Source of the DNA: Promethearchaeota archaeon
Lineage (GTDB): Archaea > Asgardarchaeota > Hermodarchaeia > Hermodarchaeales > Hermodarchaeaceae
Direction: 5' to 3'
Length of the DNA stretch: 64,000 nucleotides
Assembly (NCBI GenBank): GCA_048939625.1
Contig: JBHLPH010000002.1
Span: 1 to 64,000, forward strand
In this document: positions 58,332-63,676 of the stretch, piece by piece
Numbering within the stretch: position 1 is the stretch's first letter
How the letters are laid out: each line of letters opens with the position of its first letter
Made by a program: the position numbers and the translations under genes
Notes under the pieces: generated by a model
What the model was told of the DNA's origin: nothing
Database searches by the model: none
What the model saw: only the letters and a program-made list of their open reading frames with translations

Positions 58332-59537
58332 ATGGCCAAAACACCCACAACCATGACCATCCCAATTGGTCCCCAACACCCTGCGCTCAAAGAGCCAGAA
58401 AACTTCACCCTCACCGTCGACGGGGAAGTCGTCGTCGACGTCGCACCCCGAATTGGTTACGTCCACCGAGGTATCGAAAAAGCATTTGAAAGCCGAACGT
58501 TTAGCCAAAACGTCTACCTCGCGGAACGGATTTGCGGTATCTGCTCCCAATCCCATACCACATGCTACGTCCAAGCCGTCGAAGAAATTCTCGATTTAGA
58601 AGTTCCCCCACGTGGATTATACATTCGGGGCATCATGAATGAGCTGAACCGGATTCACAGCCACATCCTCTGGCTAGGCGTGGCTGGTCACGAAATCGGA
58701 TGGGACACCCTCTTCCACTATTCGTGGCGTGATAGGGAATACAGCATGGATATTATTGAAGAAATTTGTGGGAACCGTGTCAACTACGCCAACAACATCA
58801 TTGGCGGCGTCCGCCATGATGTGGAGAAGAGCCAAGTCCCGGGCATGGTGGAACGCCTCGAAAAAATCCGTGACCGCATGCACCACTACCTGAAATTAAT
58901 CCTGAATGAACAAACCATTTTAGACCGGGCCCTTGGTGTGGGCATCCTCGAAACTGAAGTCGGAAAAGCCCTCTGTGCCACTGGTCCCACTGCCCGCGCC
59001 TCCGACATCCACTGGGACGTGCGCAACACCCAACCCCGCACCCCCTACCAAGAAAGCGAAAACAAACACTGGGAAATCCGCACCTCCGACCTCTGCGACG
59101 TCGCCGGCCGCGTCGTCGTCCGAATACTTGAAACCGTCGACGCCTGCACCTGCTGCATCGACTGGCTCAAACACCTCCCCCCAGGCGACATCAGCGTCCG
59201 CGCCCCCCGCCGCGTCCCACCCGGCAAAGCCCTCAGCACCTTCGAAGCCCCCCGCGGCGAAGTCGTCCACTTCGTCGTCAGCAACGGCACCGACAAACCC
59301 GAACGCCACAAAGCCCGCGCCCCCACCCTCGGCAACATCCCCAGCGTCGTCGAAATCATCAAAGGCGGCAAAATCGCCGACGTACCCATCGCCCTAGCCA
59401 GCATAGATCCCTGCTTTTCATGTACTGATAGAATCATTCTCGCGTATCCCGATGGTTCAAAGGAGGAAAAGCCTTGGGCATGGTTCCAAGAAAAAAGCCG
59501 CGAAGAGAGAGAAAAAGTGAAAGCTTGGCGCCGTTAG
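58332..59537 (+). CDS. Group 4 (energy-converting, Mbh/Ech-like) [NiFe]-hydrogenase large subunit
   Basis: PIGPQHP, GYVHRGIEK, ERICGIC (L1), EAPRGE, DPCFSC (L2) followed by TDR and a cleavable-type tail. Confidence 0.93.
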   Translation: MAKTPTTMTIPIGPQHPALKEPENFTLTVDGEVVVDVAPRIGYVHRGIEKAFESRTFSQNVYLAERICGICSQSHTTCYVQAVEEILDLEVPPRGLYIRGIMNELNRIHSHILWLGVAGHEIGWDTLFHYSWRDREYSMDIIEEICGNRVNYANNIIGGVRHDVEKSQVPGMVERLEKIRDRMHHYLKLILNEQTILDRALGVGILETEVGKALCATGPTARASDIHWDVRNTQPRTPYQESENKHWEIRTSDLCDVAGRVVVRILETVDACTCCIDWLKHLPPGDISVRAPRRVPPGKALSTFEAPRGEVVHFVVSNGTDKPERHKARAPTLGNIPSVVEIIKGGKIADVPIALASIDPCFSCTDRIILAYPDGSKEEKPWAWFQEKSREEREKVKAWRR

Positions 59538-59554
59538 TGATTCAGCCTCTTATC

Positions 59555-61567
59555 CTAGAGTAACCTTTCCATTCCTATCTTTGCCTTCCCTTTTCGGTCA
59601 ATTGACTTAAGGGATTTTTGCTTTTGATAATCCTTAATCCATTCGAGAGCCGCTTTTCTTTTCTCCCCAGAACTTGGTGGAGTTATGATTGCCCAGCAAT
59701 AGGTATCATTTTCGGATTTGGTATAGATTTCCCAGATTGCTGATACCCGATTGGTTTCATGGAGAATGATTTTTTTAAAGATCGTTGTCATTTGAATGCC
59801 TAAACTTTTGATTAGATTCTTTTCATCTTCAAGAAGTTCACAAGGATGGTTTTTAATAATTCGTCTTAATTCCCTGGCTATTTGTTCATCTTTTTGTGTC
59901 ATAGCTTGAGACGTTAGTTTATCTAGCCTTCCCTTCAATATTTCCATTCGTTTTCTGGGTTTATCATCTCGTATGGCTTCATATCGCTCTATACCATACT
60001 TCTGGATGAATTGATTATGTCTATGTGTGATCATTGGTTTGTATCTATACAGCTTGGTTTTGGGTCCTGCGTCGAGTACATGAGCACGTTTGATTCCGAA
60101 TTTCATTTGTCCATTTCTTTCAACAAAAAACCCATCTTCGGGGACAACTTCAGCAAGGTAAGCAGATCTCATCTCAAGTGTACCTTGTTTAATGGTTTGT
60201 GGTAAACGAAAATCGGGGCTGAGTAGTTTGTCGCCTTTGGGGACGCCCCAGTGTTCGAGGAGTCGACCGACGACTGCTGTTATTGTGAGACGTTTTCGTT
60301 GTCCTTGAAGTTCTTCGGTTTTGTAGTCGGTTTCTCCGAGTTGTCGGAAGAGGGTTCGGACGTATTCAATTCGTTTTGGATCTTTTTCGTGGTAGGTGAG
60401 GACGTGGGTGGTTTTGTTGATGTGGCAGTCGCTGAGGGCGATGGCGATGAGGCGGGCGCGGAGTTCGTTGAGTTCTTTACCTTCGGGGAAACGTGGGTTG
60501 TGGATGCCGCCGCTGTGTTCGGTGGTGCTGATGCGGCCGATGTGGGTTATGTGGGGGGTGATGGTGTTGAATGGTTGGTTGGTGGTGTTGAGGAGGAGGT
60601 GGAGGGTGTCGCCGTGGAGGTAGTGGTTGTATTTGGTGGACCAGAGTTCGTAGGGGGCGGCGCGGGGGTTGTAGGTGCGGTGGCGGGGGTGGGTGGTGAG
60701 TTGGTTGAGGAGTTGGCCGAGTTGTTGGGTGTTGGTGTTGAGGTGGTGTTGGGCGGTGGTGAGGAGTTGTTCTTTGATGTGGGGGGTGAGGTAGAGGAGT
60801 TCGTGGTGGTAGGTGTTGAGCCAGTGGTCGGGGAGGGTGGTTTTGCGCCAGAGGTAGAGGACATCATGATCGATGGCGAGGCGAAGTTCTTCGTGGGTGT
60901 TGGCGAGTTGTAGGCGTTCGGTGAGTTTGCGTTCGAGTTCAGATCGGTGTTTTTGAATGGAGTGGGCGATGGTGCGGAGCTGTTGGGGGCCGCGTTTGTG
61001 GTAGGGTTTGAGTTCGGCGATGAGGAGCCGTTGGTCGGATTTGTGGTGGTAGAGGGTGGCGAGCGCGGTGGTGAGGGGGGCTGGGGTGTGGGTTGTGGGG
61101 TCGTCGAGTAAGTGTTGGAAGGTGGTGTAGACGAGGCTGGGATCGAGGAGGTGGGGTTGGGTTTCAGTTGGCAGATGGCGTTCCCAGCGGTGGCGGGCAG
61201 CCTCATGAATGGTGAGGGTGCGTTCGAGGTGGGGCTGTTTGATGCCAAGGTGCCAGTCGCGGAGGCGTCCGGCGGGGATGCCGGTGAGGTCTTGGAGGTC
61301 TTTGTAGGTTTTGTTGCTGAGGTGGCCATCGTGACGTGCCGCGGTGAGGATGCGGTGCCAGAGGGCATTAATGGAGGAGTGAGTGCATGTAGTGCGGGTT
61401 TGGAGGTAGGGGTGGCGTGCAAGGTCGTGTTCGAGGGTTTTCCAAGCGCGTGTGCCATATGTGTTGAGGAGTTGTCGGGCTTCGGGAGTTGCAGCTAGGG
61501 TGTCTCGGAGCATGGCCCAGTCGTGGATGGATGTCCAAGTCTGGTGAATGGAGTTGGTGGGAGACAT
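59555..61567 (-). CDS. Free-standing protein with an HTH-like segment and two LAGLIDADG-like motifs
   Basis: TYKDLQDLTGIPAGRLRDW HTH-like segment; LIAIALSDCHI and YLAEVVPEDGF motifs with GVPKGDK...FRLP between, as in DOD endonucleases; no intein splicing termini. Confidence 0.65.
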   Translation of the reverse strand: MSPTNSIHQTWTSIHDWAMLRDTLAATPEARQLLNTYGTRAWKTLEHDLARHPYLQTRTTCTHSSINALWHRILTAARHDGHLSNKTYKDLQDLTGIPAGRLRDWHLGIKQPHLERTLTIHEAARHRWERHLPTETQPHLLDPSLVYTTFQHLLDDPTTHTPAPLTTALATLYHHKSDQRLLIAELKPYHKRGPQQLRTIAHSIQKHRSELERKLTERLQLANTHEELRLAIDHDVLYLWRKTTLPDHWLNTYHHELLYLTPHIKEQLLTTAQHHLNTNTQQLGQLLNQLTTHPRHRTYNPRAAPYELWSTKYNHYLHGDTLHLLLNTTNQPFNTITPHITHIGRISTTEHSGGIHNPRFPEGKELNELRARLIAIALSDCHINKTTHVLTYHEKDPKRIEYVRTLFRQLGETDYKTEELQGQRKRLTITAVVGRLLEHWGVPKGDKLLSPDFRLPQTIKQGTLEMRSAYLAEVVPEDGFFVERNGQMKFGIKRAHVLDAGPKTKLYRYKPMITHRHNQFIQKYGIERYEAIRDDKPRKRMEILKGRLDKLTSQAMTQKDEQIARELRRIIKNHPCELLEDEKNLIKSLGIQMTTIFKKIILHETNRVSAIWEIYTKSENDTYCWAIITPPSSGEKRKAALEWIKDYQKQKSLKSIDRKGKAKIGMERLL

Positions 61568-61832
61568 GGTCTGTTCAGTAGGAGGGGGTGGAGAATTGGC
61601 TTTATACTCCTCAAATGGGGTGGTGGGAGTTATGGTGATGAGGACACCTCTCCCAGGGGCCCGGATTTTATTTCCTTTAAATGGATTACGGTGAGCAGAA
61701 CGGGAGGTGTGTCTGTGAGCATGGTTCCAGGCGAAGAGTTGGGGAGAGCGGGAACGCGTGAAGGCGTGGCGTCGTTAATCATCCTGAATGAGGTTGGTTA
61801 TTCGCACCCTGCAATTCAAACAGTAGTTCGTC

Positions 61833-62342
61833 TTAGGTCTTGTTATAGGAGAGTTGTTTGTTTTTTCGTTTCAGCATAAGGGCAAAAGTGCCGATTAGTG
61901 CGATGAGAATCGCAGGCCACGGGAATCCAGGAATGGGTATTGGTTCTTCACTCCAGGCTACTGTAAGTTGACCATATTCTGCGGTGGTGGTGGCTCGTTC
62001 GAGGATAACTCTCGTTGGTGTCTCGATGGTGAGGGTTAGATTGTATGTTCCAGGACTGGTTTTGGACACGATTGCTGTGGGTGCCCACCCATAAGTTGGA
62101 TTGGTTCGATTGAATTGGTAGGTGGTGCTTGTGTTGCCAGAAATTTGGTGAATGTCGGATCTGGCACCGTAACTGCCCGACCAGTCTCCCTCACAGTACA
62201 CGCAAATAATAACACTTTCAGTCGTTTCTCCGGTAACTCGGTTTGGGAATGCTAACAAGCCACTAATAACTATCACAACTAAAATGGCGATACTCAACCT
62301 TCGGCTCAACAAACCATTCACTTTCCGACCCTCCAGTTCCAC
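61833..62342 (-). CDS. Secreted/surface protein with a C-terminal PGF-type sorting signal
   Basis: N-terminal signal/TM segment, Thr-rich beta domain, IPGFPW plus TM helix plus KRKNK. Confidence 0.75.
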   Translation of the reverse strand: MELEGRKVNGLLSRRLSIAILVVIVISGLLAFPNRVTGETTESVIICVYCEGDWSGSYGARSDIHQISGNTSTTYQFNRTNPTYGWAPTAIVSKTSPGTYNLTLTIETPTRVILERATTTAEYGQLTVAWSEEPIPIPGFPWPAILIALIGTFALMLKRKNKQLSYNKT

Positions 62343-62402
62343 TTCAGAACCCTAAGCTAGTATTAGGTGTCGTGTTCTTAAATTTTTGTGAAGTTTCTGT
62401 GG

Positions 62403-63254
62403 TCATGAGAAGGCTTTGGTCCAGGTGGTTTTGATTTCATCTGTTGTTATTTTTCTGATGGTGTTAGTTTTGGTTTCGATGACGGCGGCGTTGAGTTCGT
62501 CGGGTGTTCGGGTTTTGTCGCGGAGGAGGGATTTGATGGTAAGGGCGAGAGCCTTGTTAAAGGCGTGGTTGGGTGCGTATTCTTCGTTGAGAATGGTGTT
62601 GGTTTCGTTGCGGTGGGTACCTTCGCACCAGGTGAGGACTTCGCGGTATGTGCCACTGGGATCAAGAACATAGAGGTGGAGGCCGGTGTCGTCGATTCCT
62701 CCGATGAGGGCGAGAAGGCCGAGGGGGCGGATGTCTTTTTTGGTTGTATAGGAGTGGATGAAGAGAGCGAGACGGTTGGTAAGTTCTTCTACGGGGATTG
62801 GTGTTTCAGTTTCTCTTTGATAGGTTTGTGCTTCATGGATGGCTCTGTGTTTGAGGAGGAGAAAATCCCCAGAGAGGCCAGTTGGTACCATGCCGATATG
62901 GTCGGTGATTTGGAAGGTTTCCCAAGGCTGAGTGAGGATGGTGTGGTGTTTCTCCGTTTGGGAAGCTTGGGGACGTTCTTTGGCGAGGATAATGCCGCCT
63001 TTGTAGCGGAGGCCGAGGATGGTGACGCCACGGGGTGGAGATTCCATGGCGTATTCAATTTGGAAGATGCGTCCGTCAGGGGAGAAGAGGTTGGTATCGT
63101 CGTAGCCGCTGGGGACGCGGATGGGGAGGGTTTCGATGTAACGGATGAGGGCAGCGCGGATGAGTTCGGCTTTACTGCCAAACATGCCTTTCTGAACGAC
63201 GGTGTTCATATATCGGTCCAGCTCATTAGACACAACAACGCGTACTTCAGGCAT
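62403..63254 (-). CDS. Proteasome alpha-subunit paralogue with N-terminal ribbon-helix-helix domain
   Basis: Residues 1-42 (EVRVVVSNELDRYM...GMFGSKAELIRAALIRY) fit an RHH; then GYDDTNLFSPDGRIFQIEYA, RPLG...GGID, DPSG; AGGAG SD. Confidence 0.85.
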   Translation of the reverse strand: MPEVRVVVSNELDRYMNTVVQKGMFGSKAELIRAALIRYIETLPIRVPSGYDDTNLFSPDGRIFQIEYAMESPPRGVTILGLRYKGGIILAKERPQASQTEKHHTILTQPWETFQITDHIGMVPTGLSGDFLLLKHRAIHEAQTYQRETETPIPVEELTNRLALFIHSYTTKKDIRPLGLLALIGGIDDTGLHLYVLDPSGTYREVLTWCEGTHRNETNTILNEEYAPNHAFNKALALTIKSLLRDKTRTPDELNAAVIETKTNTIRKITTDEIKTTWTKAFS

Positions 63255-63272
63255 ACATGAAAACTCCTATTC

Positions 63273-63326
63273 AATGGATATATTACGGATACTTTTAAAT
63301 GCTCTGCGCATTACGGAGTAAATGGA
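63273..63326. promoter_or_regulatory. Four AYGGA boxes flanking the TATA element upstream of the RHH-proteasome gene
   Basis: AATGGA 63273, ATTACGGA 63282, TTTTAAAT 63293-63300, ATTACGGA 63310, AATGGA 63321. Confidence 0.4.
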
Positions 63327-63463
63327 GTAGCTCCATGAAAAAGATTAGCTTACCCGAGGACAGTTATTGGAAACTAGTTGAGTTGAAAGGTAAATTCCGT
63401 TGCACAACATGGAAGGACCTGGTTGATCTGATTCACCAAAAATACCTGAACGACTGATTCCTG

Positions 63464-63676
63464 TTATCCAGTTACATTTGGTTCATCGTCGAAGAAGAAG
63501 ATGTCTTCGATTCGTTTCCCTAATTGTTGTGCTATGCGGTGGGCTAGTCGCAGGGAGGGGTTATAGGTTCCTTTTTCGAGGAAGAGGATGGTTTGGCGGG
63601 TGACACCAACAGCTTCAGCCAAGTCTTCTTGAGTTAAGTTATGTTGTTGGCGTAGTTCTCGGATCTTGGTCTTCAT
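63464..63676 (-). CDS. XRE-family HTH transcriptional regulator
   Basis: [17 protein letters not shown]...[11 protein letters not shown]...IEDIF. Confidence 0.93.

What the first reader, a model, noticed from the sequence alone, without database searches (positions are those of the whole stretch)
62403..63254. Ribbon-helix-helix domain fused to the gate of a proteasome alpha subunit
Seen: a CopG/MetJ-like RHH (residues 1-42) in frame directly before the alpha-subunit signature GYD..T.FSPDGRIFQIEYA and a full-length alpha body. The body is diverged: ESPPRG for the usual EAVKRG, and ETF where EKI carries the HbYX-pocket Lys. No beta subunit is adjacent. Known: alpha N-termini form the 20S gate, and RHH domains are dimeric DNA binders. 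Inference: a DNA-tethered or auto-regulating alpha-ring, a transcription factor sensing proteasome subunits, or a gate-modifying paralogue. It may instead be a decaying copy, since it lies in a skewed tract.
Basis: partly seen in the sequence, partly recalled or inferred. Interest (0 to 1): 0.78.

Follow-up and report, generated by a model that had tools for sequence, protein, structure and literature searches.

The report
DNA-binding domain fused to proteasome alpha paralogue
This Asgard archaeon carries, besides its normal proteasome genes, a conserved and selected extra alpha-type subunit whose gate tail is replaced by a small DNA-binding (ribbon-helix-helix) domain. The family is not described in the papers I could search, and it hints at a link between proteasome parts and gene control.

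Summary
Window 62403-63254 (-) encodes a 283-aa protein with three parts:
- a ParD/CopG/NikR-like ribbon-helix-helix (RHH) domain, residues 1-42;
- an 8-residue linker;
- a full proteasome alpha-subunit fold.

**Not an artefact or a decaying copy.**
- About 48 full-length homologues exist in independent assemblies.
- dN/dS against the nearest relative is 0.11 overall and 0.02 in the RHH.
- Contigs of an unrelated study tile across the domain junction.

**Family.** At least 20 clusters at 50% identity carry the same RHH. They are long forms in Asgard archaea and short forms in Thermoplasmata-type archaea. A tree built on the body alone fits a single fusion event. The gene is rare: 5 of 400 Asgard species genomes, and 1 of 14 genus-mates.

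**Alpha features.** The lysine of the activator (HbYX) pocket is Glu112 here. The gate residues Tyr, Asp, Pro and Tyr are kept.

**New for this clade.** A 40-aa gene under purifying selection lies divergently 80 bp upstream in every locus examined. The shared promoter region is conserved.

**Most likely function (inferred, not shown).** A DNA-binding, self-regulating alpha paralogue.

No paper found describes it. The scan has met this family before in at least seven other genomes.

The parts
62403..63254 (-). Coding sequence of the RHH-alpha fusion protein (283 aa plus stop)
   Evidence: ORF list and translation. About 48 full-length homologues of 278-301 aa. dN/dS 0.11 against L042.
63129..63254 (-). 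Ribbon-helix-helix domain, residues 1-42: strand 3-8, helix 10-21, G-S-K turn, helix 28-41
   Evidence: AF2 models. Foldseek top 50 are all RHH proteins. Best PDB profile hits are ParD, weakly. E3, R5, G23, K28, A29, E30, R33 and A35 are invariant across the whole family.
63105..63128 (-). Short linker, residues 43-50 (L-P-I-R-V-P-S-G), standing where the canonical gate tail would be
   Evidence: Low-confidence segment 46-59 in the full model. Linker length is near-constant across the family, apart from a 7-residue insertion in the P0049/P0054 clade.
63042..63098 (-). Proteasome alpha N-terminal signature (H0 helix), residues 53-71; the aligned gate-cluster residues are Y51, D52, P59 and Y68
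   Evidence: PF10584, 39.1 bits. Column conservation against 42 canonical alphas.
62520..63032 (-). Proteasome alpha-subunit fold, residues 75-245
   Evidence: PF00227 1e-30. phmmer against archaeal alpha structures 2e-31. Foldseek TM 0.82-0.90 normalised to the target, best match 1j2p_A.
62919..62921 (-). Codon of Glu112, at the position of the HbYX-pocket lysine of canonical alpha subunits
   Evidence: Alignments to solved archaeal alphas and to the genome's own alphas. This column is K in 95% of canonical alphas, E in 48% of long forms and K in 92% of short forms.
63255..63334 (.). 80-bp shared divergent promoter region. It holds four conserved yTCC boxes, at 63324-27, 63315-18, 63287-90 and 63276-79 on the minus strand.
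   Evidence: Spacer length is 79-82 bp in seven loci. Pairwise identity is 57-78% where synonymous sites are saturated.
63310..63317 (-). First copy of the 8-mer TCCGTAAT (candidate operator half)
   Evidence: The pair is unique in the 2.3-Mb genome. Only the TCC core is conserved in the orthologous promoters.
63282..63289 (-). Second copy of TCCGTAAT, 28 bp from the first
63293..63299 (.). AT-rich TATA-like element (TTTTAAA) between the two repeat copies
   Evidence: Read from the sequence. It lies in the AT-rich centre of the aligned spacers; that centre carries few conserved columns (ACTT core only).
63264..63267 (-). GGAG ribosome-binding-like site 9 nt before the ATG of the fusion gene
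   Evidence: Invariant in seven loci.
63335..63457 (+). Conserved divergent 40-aa gene (starts MKKISLPE; strand-helix-helix pattern) with GGAG at 63324-63327
   Evidence: Found in the window and in L006, L007, L009/L010/L012, L013, L014 and L042/L043. Mean pN 0.17 against pS about 0.9. 21 clusters, on the same contigs as the fusion gene where checked.

Best explanation
**What it is (shown).** An accessory paralogue of the 20S proteasome alpha subunit. Its N-terminal gate tail is replaced by a ParD/CopG/NikR-type ribbon-helix-helix domain. It belongs to an old, undescribed family found in Asgard and Thermoplasmata-type archaea.

**How it most likely works (inferred).**
- Two RHH domains pair through their N-terminal strands and bind DNA.
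- The first target is the conserved 80-bp promoter region that the gene shares with a divergent 40-aa gene, so the protein sets its own level and that of its small neighbour.
- The alpha body supplies higher-order assembly, as a ring or part of a ring. The C-terminal domains of NikR and PutA play that role for their RHH domains.
- In this clade the pocket that receives HbYX activator tails has Glu for Lys. The protein therefore probably does not dock PAN or Cdc48 in the usual way.
For: **Fusion real and conserved.**

**RHH fold.** Models and fold search. ParD is the best sequence match, both in Pfam (15 of 19 members) and in the PDB.

**Surface residues typical of DNA-binding RHH proteins.** The strand face E3-R5 and the helix-2 cap G/S-K28 are invariant across at least 20 clusters at 50% identity.

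**Selection.** dN/dS is 0.02 in the RHH and 0.12 in the body.

**Alpha fold.** The H0 helix and the Y51, D52, P59, Y68 cluster are kept.

**Pocket lysine.** It is Glu112 here.

**Origin.** A tree on the body alone places all RHH forms on one side of a branch (SH-aLRT 92), away from the genome's own alphas.

**Promoter.**
- Spacer length and four yTCC boxes are conserved where synonymous sites are saturated.
- The TCCGTAAT pair is unique in the genome and absent upstream of the canonical proteasome genes.

**Neighbouring gene.** A divergent small gene is kept in this clade, and an AbrB/MazE-type gene takes its place in the distant long-form loci examined (L044/L045 and L015).
Against: - No DNA binding, dimerisation, ring formation or expression has been measured.
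- RHH scores stay under the Pfam cut-offs.
- The outer yTCC boxes coincide with the two ribosome-binding-like GGAG sites, so they may be conserved for translation rather than for a repressor.
- The perfect 8-mer repeat is specific to this genome.
- Short-form loci show no constant divergent partner.
- An invariant Glu on the DNA-facing strand is unusual for a DNA reader.
- Nothing shows that the alpha body acts only as an assembly module and not as a true proteasome subunit.
Confidence: 0.5

Rival explanations
1. It is a working alternative alpha subunit. It enters alpha rings together with, or instead of, the two canonical alphas. Its RHH domains pair over the axial pore. They then cap the gate, keep HbYX activators off, or tether the particle to DNA. 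Any self-regulation would be secondary.
For: - The H0 helix and the gate cluster Y51, D52, P59, Y68 are conserved as in canonical alphas.
- The alpha fold is complete.
- The 8-residue linker forces the RHH to sit next to the pore.
- The pocket lysine is replaced by Glu in this clade.
- The genome supplies two alphas and two betas as possible partners.
- From general knowledge, Haloferax builds two alpha forms into its 20S.
Against: - Many positions conserved in canonical alphas are changed, for example the R of the D-A-R motif, the G-G before R-P-F-G, and F178L.
- NCBIfam alpha models score far below their cut-offs: 159 against 219, and 144 against 287.
- Short forms lack the C-terminal part of the body.
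- The gene is present in only 5 of 400 Asgard species genomes and is never next to proteasome genes.
- Seven RHH domains cannot all pair in a heptamer.
Confidence: 0.25
2. The RHH is only a protein-protein module, as in antitoxins. The two-gene cassette is a toxin-antitoxin-like or conflict module that acts on proteasome assembly, without sequence-specific DNA binding.
For: - The RHH is closest to ParD antitoxins.
- The partner in the distant clade is of the MazE/AbrB antitoxin type.
- The distribution is patchy, and the gene sits in a variable island between hydrogenase-type genes.
Against: - There is no toxin-type domain and no ParE or MazF gene next to it.
- There are no PADLOC hits, and the only PHROGs hit is marginal (E 0.023, 'DNA binding protein', over the RHH).
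- Antitoxin RHH domains do bind their own operators, so this reading does not remove DNA binding.
- The genes are divergent, not co-transcribed as toxin-antitoxin pairs are.
Confidence: 0.08
3. The gene is a decaying duplicate or an assembly chimera, and the N-terminal part is not translated.
For: Composition is unusual: 55% C and 6% G at third codon positions. The tract around it is skewed.
Against: - dN/dS is 0.11 overall and 0.02 in the RHH.
- About 48 intact homologues come from independent assemblies.
- The skew is shared with the nearest relative and lies at synonymous sites.
- Contigs of another study bridge the junction.
- GGAG before the ATG is conserved.
Confidence: 0.02

Closest known systems
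Archaeal 20S proteasome alpha subunit PsmA (PF00227 + PF10584; NF003075 / TIGR03633; e.g. Archaeoglobus fulgidus 1J2P, Methanocaldococcus jannaschii 3H4P)
   Same: Full alpha fold, with TM 0.82-0.90 normalised to the target and about 30% identity. The H0 helix signature and the aligned Tyr, Asp, Pro, Tyr gate cluster are kept.
   Different: - A 48-residue RHH plus linker stands in place of the roughly 10-residue gate tail.
- The HbYX-pocket Lys is Glu.
- Several positions conserved in canonical alphas are changed.
- Scores fall below the NCBIfam cut-offs.
- It forms a separate clade from all canonical alphas.
- It is a rare accessory gene, not a universal one.
NikR (RHH + C-terminal tetramerisation/nickel-binding domain) and PutA (RHH fused to the front of an enzyme that represses its own operon)
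   Same: An N-terminal RHH is fused to a larger domain that sets oligomeric state or senses a signal. The RHH domains of NikR and PutA are among the fold matches. NikR-like proteins of 137-155 aa were the nearest other RHH proteins in Asgard genomes.
   Different: The partner domain is a proteasome alpha fold. There is no ACT-like metal-binding domain and no enzyme. Self-regulation here is inferred, not shown.
ParD antitoxin (PF03693; 3KXE, 7B22, 7YCW)
   Same: It is the best sequence and fold match of the RHH. It shares the G-x-S turn and the A-E-x-I-R helix-2 motif.
   Different: There is no C-terminal toxin-binding tail and no ParE gene nearby. Scores are below the family cut-off.
New proteasome homologues catalogued by Fuchs, Alva and Lupas 2021 (PMC8665760)
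   Same: That work shows the proteasome fold has many undescribed prokaryotic relatives.
   Different: The text contains no mention of ribbon-helix-helix, RHH, CopG, DNA-binding, fusion or fused. A 2026 review of proteasome plasticity (PMC13022661) does not mention such a subunit either.

Membership tests
Proteasome alpha subunit (Pfam PF10584 + PF00227) | N-terminal alpha signature (H0 helix) and the proteasome Ntn-type fold above the Pfam cut-offs | tested here: met
   PF10584 scores 39.1 bits (cut-off 27.7) and PF00227 107.3 bits (cut-off 22.4). Foldseek best hit is 1j2p_A at 4.6e-23.
Archaeal PsmA equivalog (NCBIfam TIGR03633 / NF003075) | Score above the curated whole-protein cut-off | tested here: not met
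   144.4 bits against 287.35, and 159 bits against 219. On the tree it lies outside the canonical alpha clade.
Proteasome alpha subunit (functional features) | Lysine of the inter-subunit pocket that binds the C-terminal carboxylate of HbYX activators (Lys66 in Thermoplasma numbering, from general knowledge) | tested here: not met
   The canonical K aligns with Glu112. The column is K in 95% of canonical alphas and E in 48% of long forms. Short forms keep K in 92%.
Proteasome alpha subunit (functional features) | Gate-stabilising cluster Tyr8, Asp9, Pro17, Tyr26 (Thermoplasma numbering, from general knowledge) | tested here: met
   Y51, D52, P59 and Y68 align to columns that are 100% conserved in canonical alphas.
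Proteasome alpha subunit (functional features) | Assembly into heptameric rings that stack on beta rings | not testable with these tools
   A heptamer (1981 residues) exceeds the size limit of the complex predictor. There are no experimental data.
Ribbon-helix-helix superfamily (CopG/Arc/MetJ/ParD) | Strand-helix-helix topology with a G-x-S/T/N turn before helix 2 | tested here: met
   AF2 model with pLDDT 92: extended 3-8, helices 10-21 and 28-42, with G26-S27-K28 at the turn. All 50 best PDB fold matches are RHH proteins.
Ribbon-helix-helix superfamily (CopG/Arc/MetJ/ParD) | Sequence score above a Pfam RHH family cut-off | tested here: not met
   For this protein, ParD_antitoxin scores 18 bits against 21 and RHH_1 13.2 against 20.5. 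Of 19 family members, 15 hit ParD_antitoxin at E up to 1, the best at 3e-4.
Ribbon-helix-helix superfamily (CopG/Arc/MetJ/ParD) | Dimerisation through an antiparallel two-stranded ribbon, and DNA binding through that ribbon | not tested
DNA binding cannot be tested here.
ParD-ParE type II toxin-antitoxin system | Adjacent ParE toxin gene and a C-terminal toxin-binding tail on the antitoxin | tested here: not met
   The neighbours are a 169-aa protein without a family, the 40-aa gene and an HTH_3 gene. The RHH is followed by the alpha body. There are no PADLOC hits.

The most novel reading that the evidence does not exclude
Some archaeal 20S proteasomes, including those of close relatives of eukaryotes, can take up a DNA-binding alpha subunit. 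Its RHH domains pair over the gate and shut out HbYX activators through the Lys-to-Glu change. They hold the particle on specific DNA, so that proteolysis is placed at, or controlled from, a genomic site. The divergent 40-aa protein would act as its co-regulator.
Probability: 0.15. Interest if true: 0.85.

Novelty: new variant of a known kind. Interest (0 to 1): 0.62.

Why it matters
Alpha-subunit N-termini form the gate of the 20S proteasome. Here a conserved archaeal family places a DNA-binding domain exactly there, and no paper I could search describes it.

If the protein is a transcription factor built on an alpha fold, it shows a new use of the proteasome fold. It may also give cells a way to couple gene expression to proteasome subunit pools. 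If it enters 20S particles, it would be the first prokaryotic proteasome with a built-in DNA-binding cap. It occurs in Asgard lineages near the root of eukaryotes, where alpha subunits diversified into seven paralogues.

Both readings can be tested directly with recombinant protein and an 80-bp DNA fragment.

Tried and rejected
- **Complex prediction.** The full-length fusion (alignment A2) with the 40-aa protein (A4) gave no answer: score 0.00, controls not run. This is no evidence either way.
- **40-aa profile against the fused RHH.** A profile-profile comparison found nothing. Pfam and PDB profile searches of the 40-aa family found nothing credible. The protein atlas gave only leads below 0.9: DUF7557 'putative antitoxin' and DUF5371. 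Its RHH nature therefore remains a reading of its strand-helix-helix pattern.
- **RNA evidence.** No RNA holder was listed among public runs, so nothing can be said on expression.
- **Defence and phage libraries.** PADLOC gave no hit and PHROGs only a marginal one (E 0.023) for the fusion, the 40-aa protein and the two downstream ORFs.
- **Conserved third gene.** The 328-aa neighbours in L006 and L007 are unrelated: one is NurA-like, the other metallo-beta-lactamase-like. Beyond the small divergent gene, no neighbour is shared.
- **Standalone copy of this RHH.** A search of shorter proteins gave only fragments cut at contig ends. One 69-aa standalone RHH in another Asgard genome matched the profile at 7e-11 and was not followed up.
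- **TCCGTAAT motif.** It was not found, allowing one mismatch, within 250 bp upstream of the four canonical proteasome genes. Its count in the window (2) is no more than chance; only the pairing is unusual.
- **Bacterial-type promoter and terminator scan.** It was uninformative for an archaeon.

Full report
**1. The observation**

The minus strand of window 62403..63254 carries one open frame of 283 codons.
- Pfam places the alpha-subunit N-terminal signature at residues 53-71 and the proteasome fold at 75-245, both well above their cut-offs.
- The best solved relatives by sequence are archaeal alpha subunits, at 2e-31 and about 30% identity.
- A full-length AlphaFold2 model built from 45 homologues (pLDDT 85) matches alpha subunits with TM 0.82-0.90 normalised to the target. 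The best match is the Archaeoglobus alpha ring 1J2P.

**2. Is the N-terminus a ribbon-helix-helix domain?**

Sequence scores alone are not enough.
- ParD_antitoxin scores 18 bits against a cut-off of 21, and RHH_1 scores 13 against 20.5.
- They are consistent, though. 15 of 19 family members hit ParD_antitoxin, and the two best PDB profile hits are ParD proteins aligned over the strand end, helix 1, the G-x-S turn and helix 2.

The fold test is clearer.
- A model of residues 1-48 (pLDDT 92) has an extended segment 3-8 and helices 10-21 and 28-42.
- All 50 best Foldseek matches are RHH proteins: ParD/PrpA, NikR, CopG, Arc, MazE, PutA, ORF56. TM-scores are mostly 0.6-0.8 (range 0.46-0.81) and rmsd is mostly 1-3 Å over about 40 columns.
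- The individual E-values are weak because the domain is short. It is the uniformity of the list that carries the weight.

I therefore take the RHH fold as shown, and DNA binding as inferred.

**3. Real, selected, and not an assembly product**

- About 48 proteins of 278-301 aa align over the full length, from NCBI, JGI, ENA and Logan assemblies. Source names include Candidatus Hodarchaeota and Promethearchaeota.
- Against the closest relative (L042, 86% identical, another sample), dN/dS is 0.109 overall, 0.020 in the RHH and 0.120 in the body. More distant pairs have saturated synonymous sites and low pN.
L042 shares it (58% C, 8% G), but more distant orthologues do not. It therefore lies at synonymous sites of one lineage and has not damaged the protein.
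- Contigs of an unrelated 2021 sediment study tile across the RHH/alpha junction near 63110 with no or few differences.
- A GGAG 9 nt before the ATG is invariant in seven loci.

**4. The family is larger and older than this clade**

A profile search of 1.84 billion cluster representatives found at least 20 clusters at 50% identity that begin with the same RHH.
- Long forms are 276-301 aa. One cluster has a member named Candidatus Sigynarchaeum.
- Short forms are 237-252 aa. Source names include Thermoplasmata (Candidatus Sysuiplasma acidicola), 'Euryarchaeota archaeon' and 'Methanobacteriota archaeon'.
- Across all of them E3, R5, G23, K28, A29, E30, R33 and A35 are invariant, and the distance from helix 2 to the G-Y-D motif is near-constant apart from a 7-residue insertion in the P0049/P0054 clade.
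- A maximum-likelihood tree built on the alpha body alone, with the RHH columns removed, separates 42 canonical alphas from all RHH forms. The canonical set includes the genome's own two. SH-aLRT support for that branch is 92, long forms have 90 and short forms 97.
- This fits one fusion event followed by independent descent. The tree is unrooted and the search was quick, so I claim no more than that.

**5. Distribution**

- Among 400 species-level genomes of the same phylum, the fusion was found in five, with both a protein query and a more sensitive RHH profile.
- The five are the window's genome, one of 14 genus-mates, one other genome of the same family, and two genomes of two other families.
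- The genus-mates are 72-91% complete, so incompleteness cannot explain twelve or thirteen absences.
- The gene is an accessory one.

**6. Surroundings**

- In the window the gene lies in about 7 kb of unrelated cargo between a hydrogenase-type large-subunit gene (Complex1_49kDa/NiFeSe_Hases, 58332-59537) and a NADH-dehydrogenase subunit-1-type gene further along the contig.
- In the related species (L010) it again lies downstream of a NiFe-hydrogenase large subunit, but with different genes between them.
- In other loci the neighbours are unrelated.
- No proteasome gene is adjacent anywhere. The genome's two canonical alphas (236 and 240 aa) and two betas lie on other contigs.

**7. A constant partner in this clade**

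Eighty base pairs upstream, on the other strand, lies a 40-codon gene (63335..63457) that starts MKKISLPE.
- It occurs at the same place and distance (79-82 bp) in every main-clade locus I examined.
- It is under purifying selection: mean pN is 0.17 against pS near 0.9.
- It forms a family of 21 clusters of 39-65 aa with no Pfam hit and no name. Several lie on contigs of exactly the lengths that carry the fusion gene.
- Its pattern (short strand, helix, C-x-T turn, helix) looks RHH-like, but I could not test this.
- In the distant long-form loci examined (L044/L045 and L015) the divergent neighbour is instead a 74-79-aa AbrB/MazE-type protein, PF04014 at 7.6e-10.
- Short-form loci show no constant partner.

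**8. The shared promoter region**

- The 80-bp spacer keeps 57-78% pairwise identity among loci whose synonymous sites are saturated.
- Reading in the direction of the fusion gene, the conserved columns form four yTCC boxes arranged as two pairs. The boxes within a pair are 9 and 11 bp apart.
- The pairs lie on either side of an AT-rich centre, TTTTAAA in the window.
- A GGAG precedes each start codon. The outermost box is the complement of the small gene's GGAG, so it may be kept for translation rather than for a repressor.
- In this genome the inner boxes are part of a perfect 8-mer, TCCGTAAT, present twice 28 bp apart.
  - The window holds just these two copies, about what chance gives.
  - The pair is the only one in the 2.3-Mb genome.
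  - No copy, allowing one mismatch, lies upstream of the canonical proteasome genes.
- The 8-mer is not conserved in the orthologues; only the TCC core is.
- This is a candidate operator, no more.

**9. What has changed in the alpha body**

- Three independent alignments put the lysine of the activator pocket opposite Glu112, so W-E-T-F aligns with E-K-I-F. That column is K in 95% of 42 canonical alphas and in both of the genome's own.
- The main clade mostly has Glu there, other long forms vary, and short forms keep Lys in 92%.
- Kept as in canonical alphas: Y51, D52, P59, G61, R62, Q65, E67, Y68 and A69 (the H0 helix and the gate cluster), plus the glycine and proline skeleton.
- Changed: the R of D-A-R, the G-G before R-P-F-G (here K-K-D-x-R-P-L-G), F178L and several others.
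- NCBIfam's archaeal alpha models score 159 and 144 bits, far below their cut-offs.
- It is an alpha-type fold, but not an orthologue of PsmA.

**10. How it most likely works**

Shown:
- an RHH fold joined by eight residues to the point where the gate tail leaves the alpha body;
- strong constraint on the RHH surface residues;
- a conserved promoter region shared with a conserved small gene.

Inferred:
- RHH domains act as dimers that read DNA with their paired strands. This is established for the superfamily.
- The protein should therefore be at least dimeric and should bind DNA.
- The nearest and best-conserved candidate site is its own promoter.
- RHH regulators usually need a second domain or higher-order contacts for cooperative binding, as in NikR, PutA, Arc and CopG. 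The alpha body, whose relatives self-assemble into rings, would supply this.

I give this self-regulating DNA-binding reading 0.5.

The main rival, at 0.25, is that it is a true subunit of a special 20S particle whose RHH pairs cap the gate or tether the particle. The kept gate cluster and the Lys-to-Glu change speak for this. The rarity of the gene, the many changed conserved positions and the truncated short forms speak against it. The two readings are not exclusive.

A toxin-antitoxin-like module without DNA binding gets 0.08. A dead gene or artefact gets 0.02.

**11. Comparison with what is known**

- Full-text searches for proteasome together with ribbon-helix-helix, RHH, Asgard, Hodarchaeales, paralogue or fused found nothing that describes this architecture.
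- The catalogue of new proteasome homologues by Fuchs, Alva and Lupas (PMC8665760) does not contain the words ribbon-helix-helix, RHH, CopG, DNA-binding, fusion or fused. A 2026 review of proteasome plasticity (PMC13022661) does not mention such a subunit either.
- Source annotations call the proteins 'hypothetical protein' or 'proteasome alpha subunit'.
- Within this scan the family has been met before, in at least seven other genomes, with similar conclusions.
- This window adds four things:
  - the Hodarchaeota-type long-form clade with its own 40-aa partner gene;
  - the measured selection;
  - the corrected reading of the pocket residue;
  - the rarity within the genus.

**12. Verdict**

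The finding is a new domain architecture built from two known kinds. Its function is open, but simple experiments can test it.

Noticed in passing
window 59100-63200 and locus L042 6001-6852: The genes here prefer C- and A-ending codons to an extreme degree. The fusion gene has 55% C and 6% G at third positions. GC skew on the plus strand reaches 0.46-0.56 at 60.2-61.4 kb. The nearest relative of the fusion gene, from another sample, shares the bias, but more distant orthologues do not. The bias follows the coding strand, so it looks like a codon-usage or donor signature rather than a replication-strand effect.
   Followed up: partly
window 59555-61567 (-): A 670-aa ORF rich in Thr, His, Pro and Leu converges on the hydrogenase-type gene. 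It has no credible Pfam, NCBIfam, PADLOC or PHROGs match. Another first-stage note calls it LAGLIDADG-like; I did not test that.
   Followed up: no
window 58332-59537 (+) and contig C34 66473-67636 (+) (locus L041 2333-3538 and 10474-11637): A Complex1_49kDa/NiFe-hydrogenase large-subunit gene and an NADHdh (subunit-1-type) gene are separated by about 7 kb of unrelated genes. These are the 670-aa ORF, a 169-aa membrane-anchored protein, the fusion cassette, HTH_3, DUF3796, a flavodoxin and MsrB. This suggests a variable island inside or beside a hydrogenase or complex-I-like cluster. In a genus-mate the fusion gene also lies downstream of a NiFe-hydrogenase gene, but with different cargo.
   Followed up: partly
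window 63464-63676 (-) and 63683-64051 (-): A 70-aa XRE-type HTH_3 regulator is followed by a DUF3796 membrane protein. This small regulator-membrane protein pair lies directly beside the 40-aa gene.
   Followed up: no
loci L044 2015-2254 (-), L045 621-845 (-), L015 upstream of 1710: In the distant long-form loci examined, the divergent upstream gene is an AbrB/MazE-type protein of 74-79 aa instead of the 40-aa gene. Two different small DNA-binding-type partners therefore occupy the same position.
   Followed up: partly
another Asgard genome, G122:C37:12850-12972 (+): A 69-aa open frame matches the RHH profile of the fusion family at 7e-11 without an alpha body. It may be a standalone relative or a split form.
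   Followed up: no
protein P0056 (495 aa, from the representative search): This is a head-to-tail duplication of a complete eukaryote-like alpha subunit in one predicted protein. It may be a tandem gene fusion or an assembly or gene-calling artefact.
   Followed up: no
window 63235-63267, run X4: One 226-nt contig of an unrelated sediment run matches the first codons of the fusion gene (2 differences in 33 nt) and then runs on into unlike sequence upstream. It is probably a related strain with a diverged promoter region.
   Followed up: no
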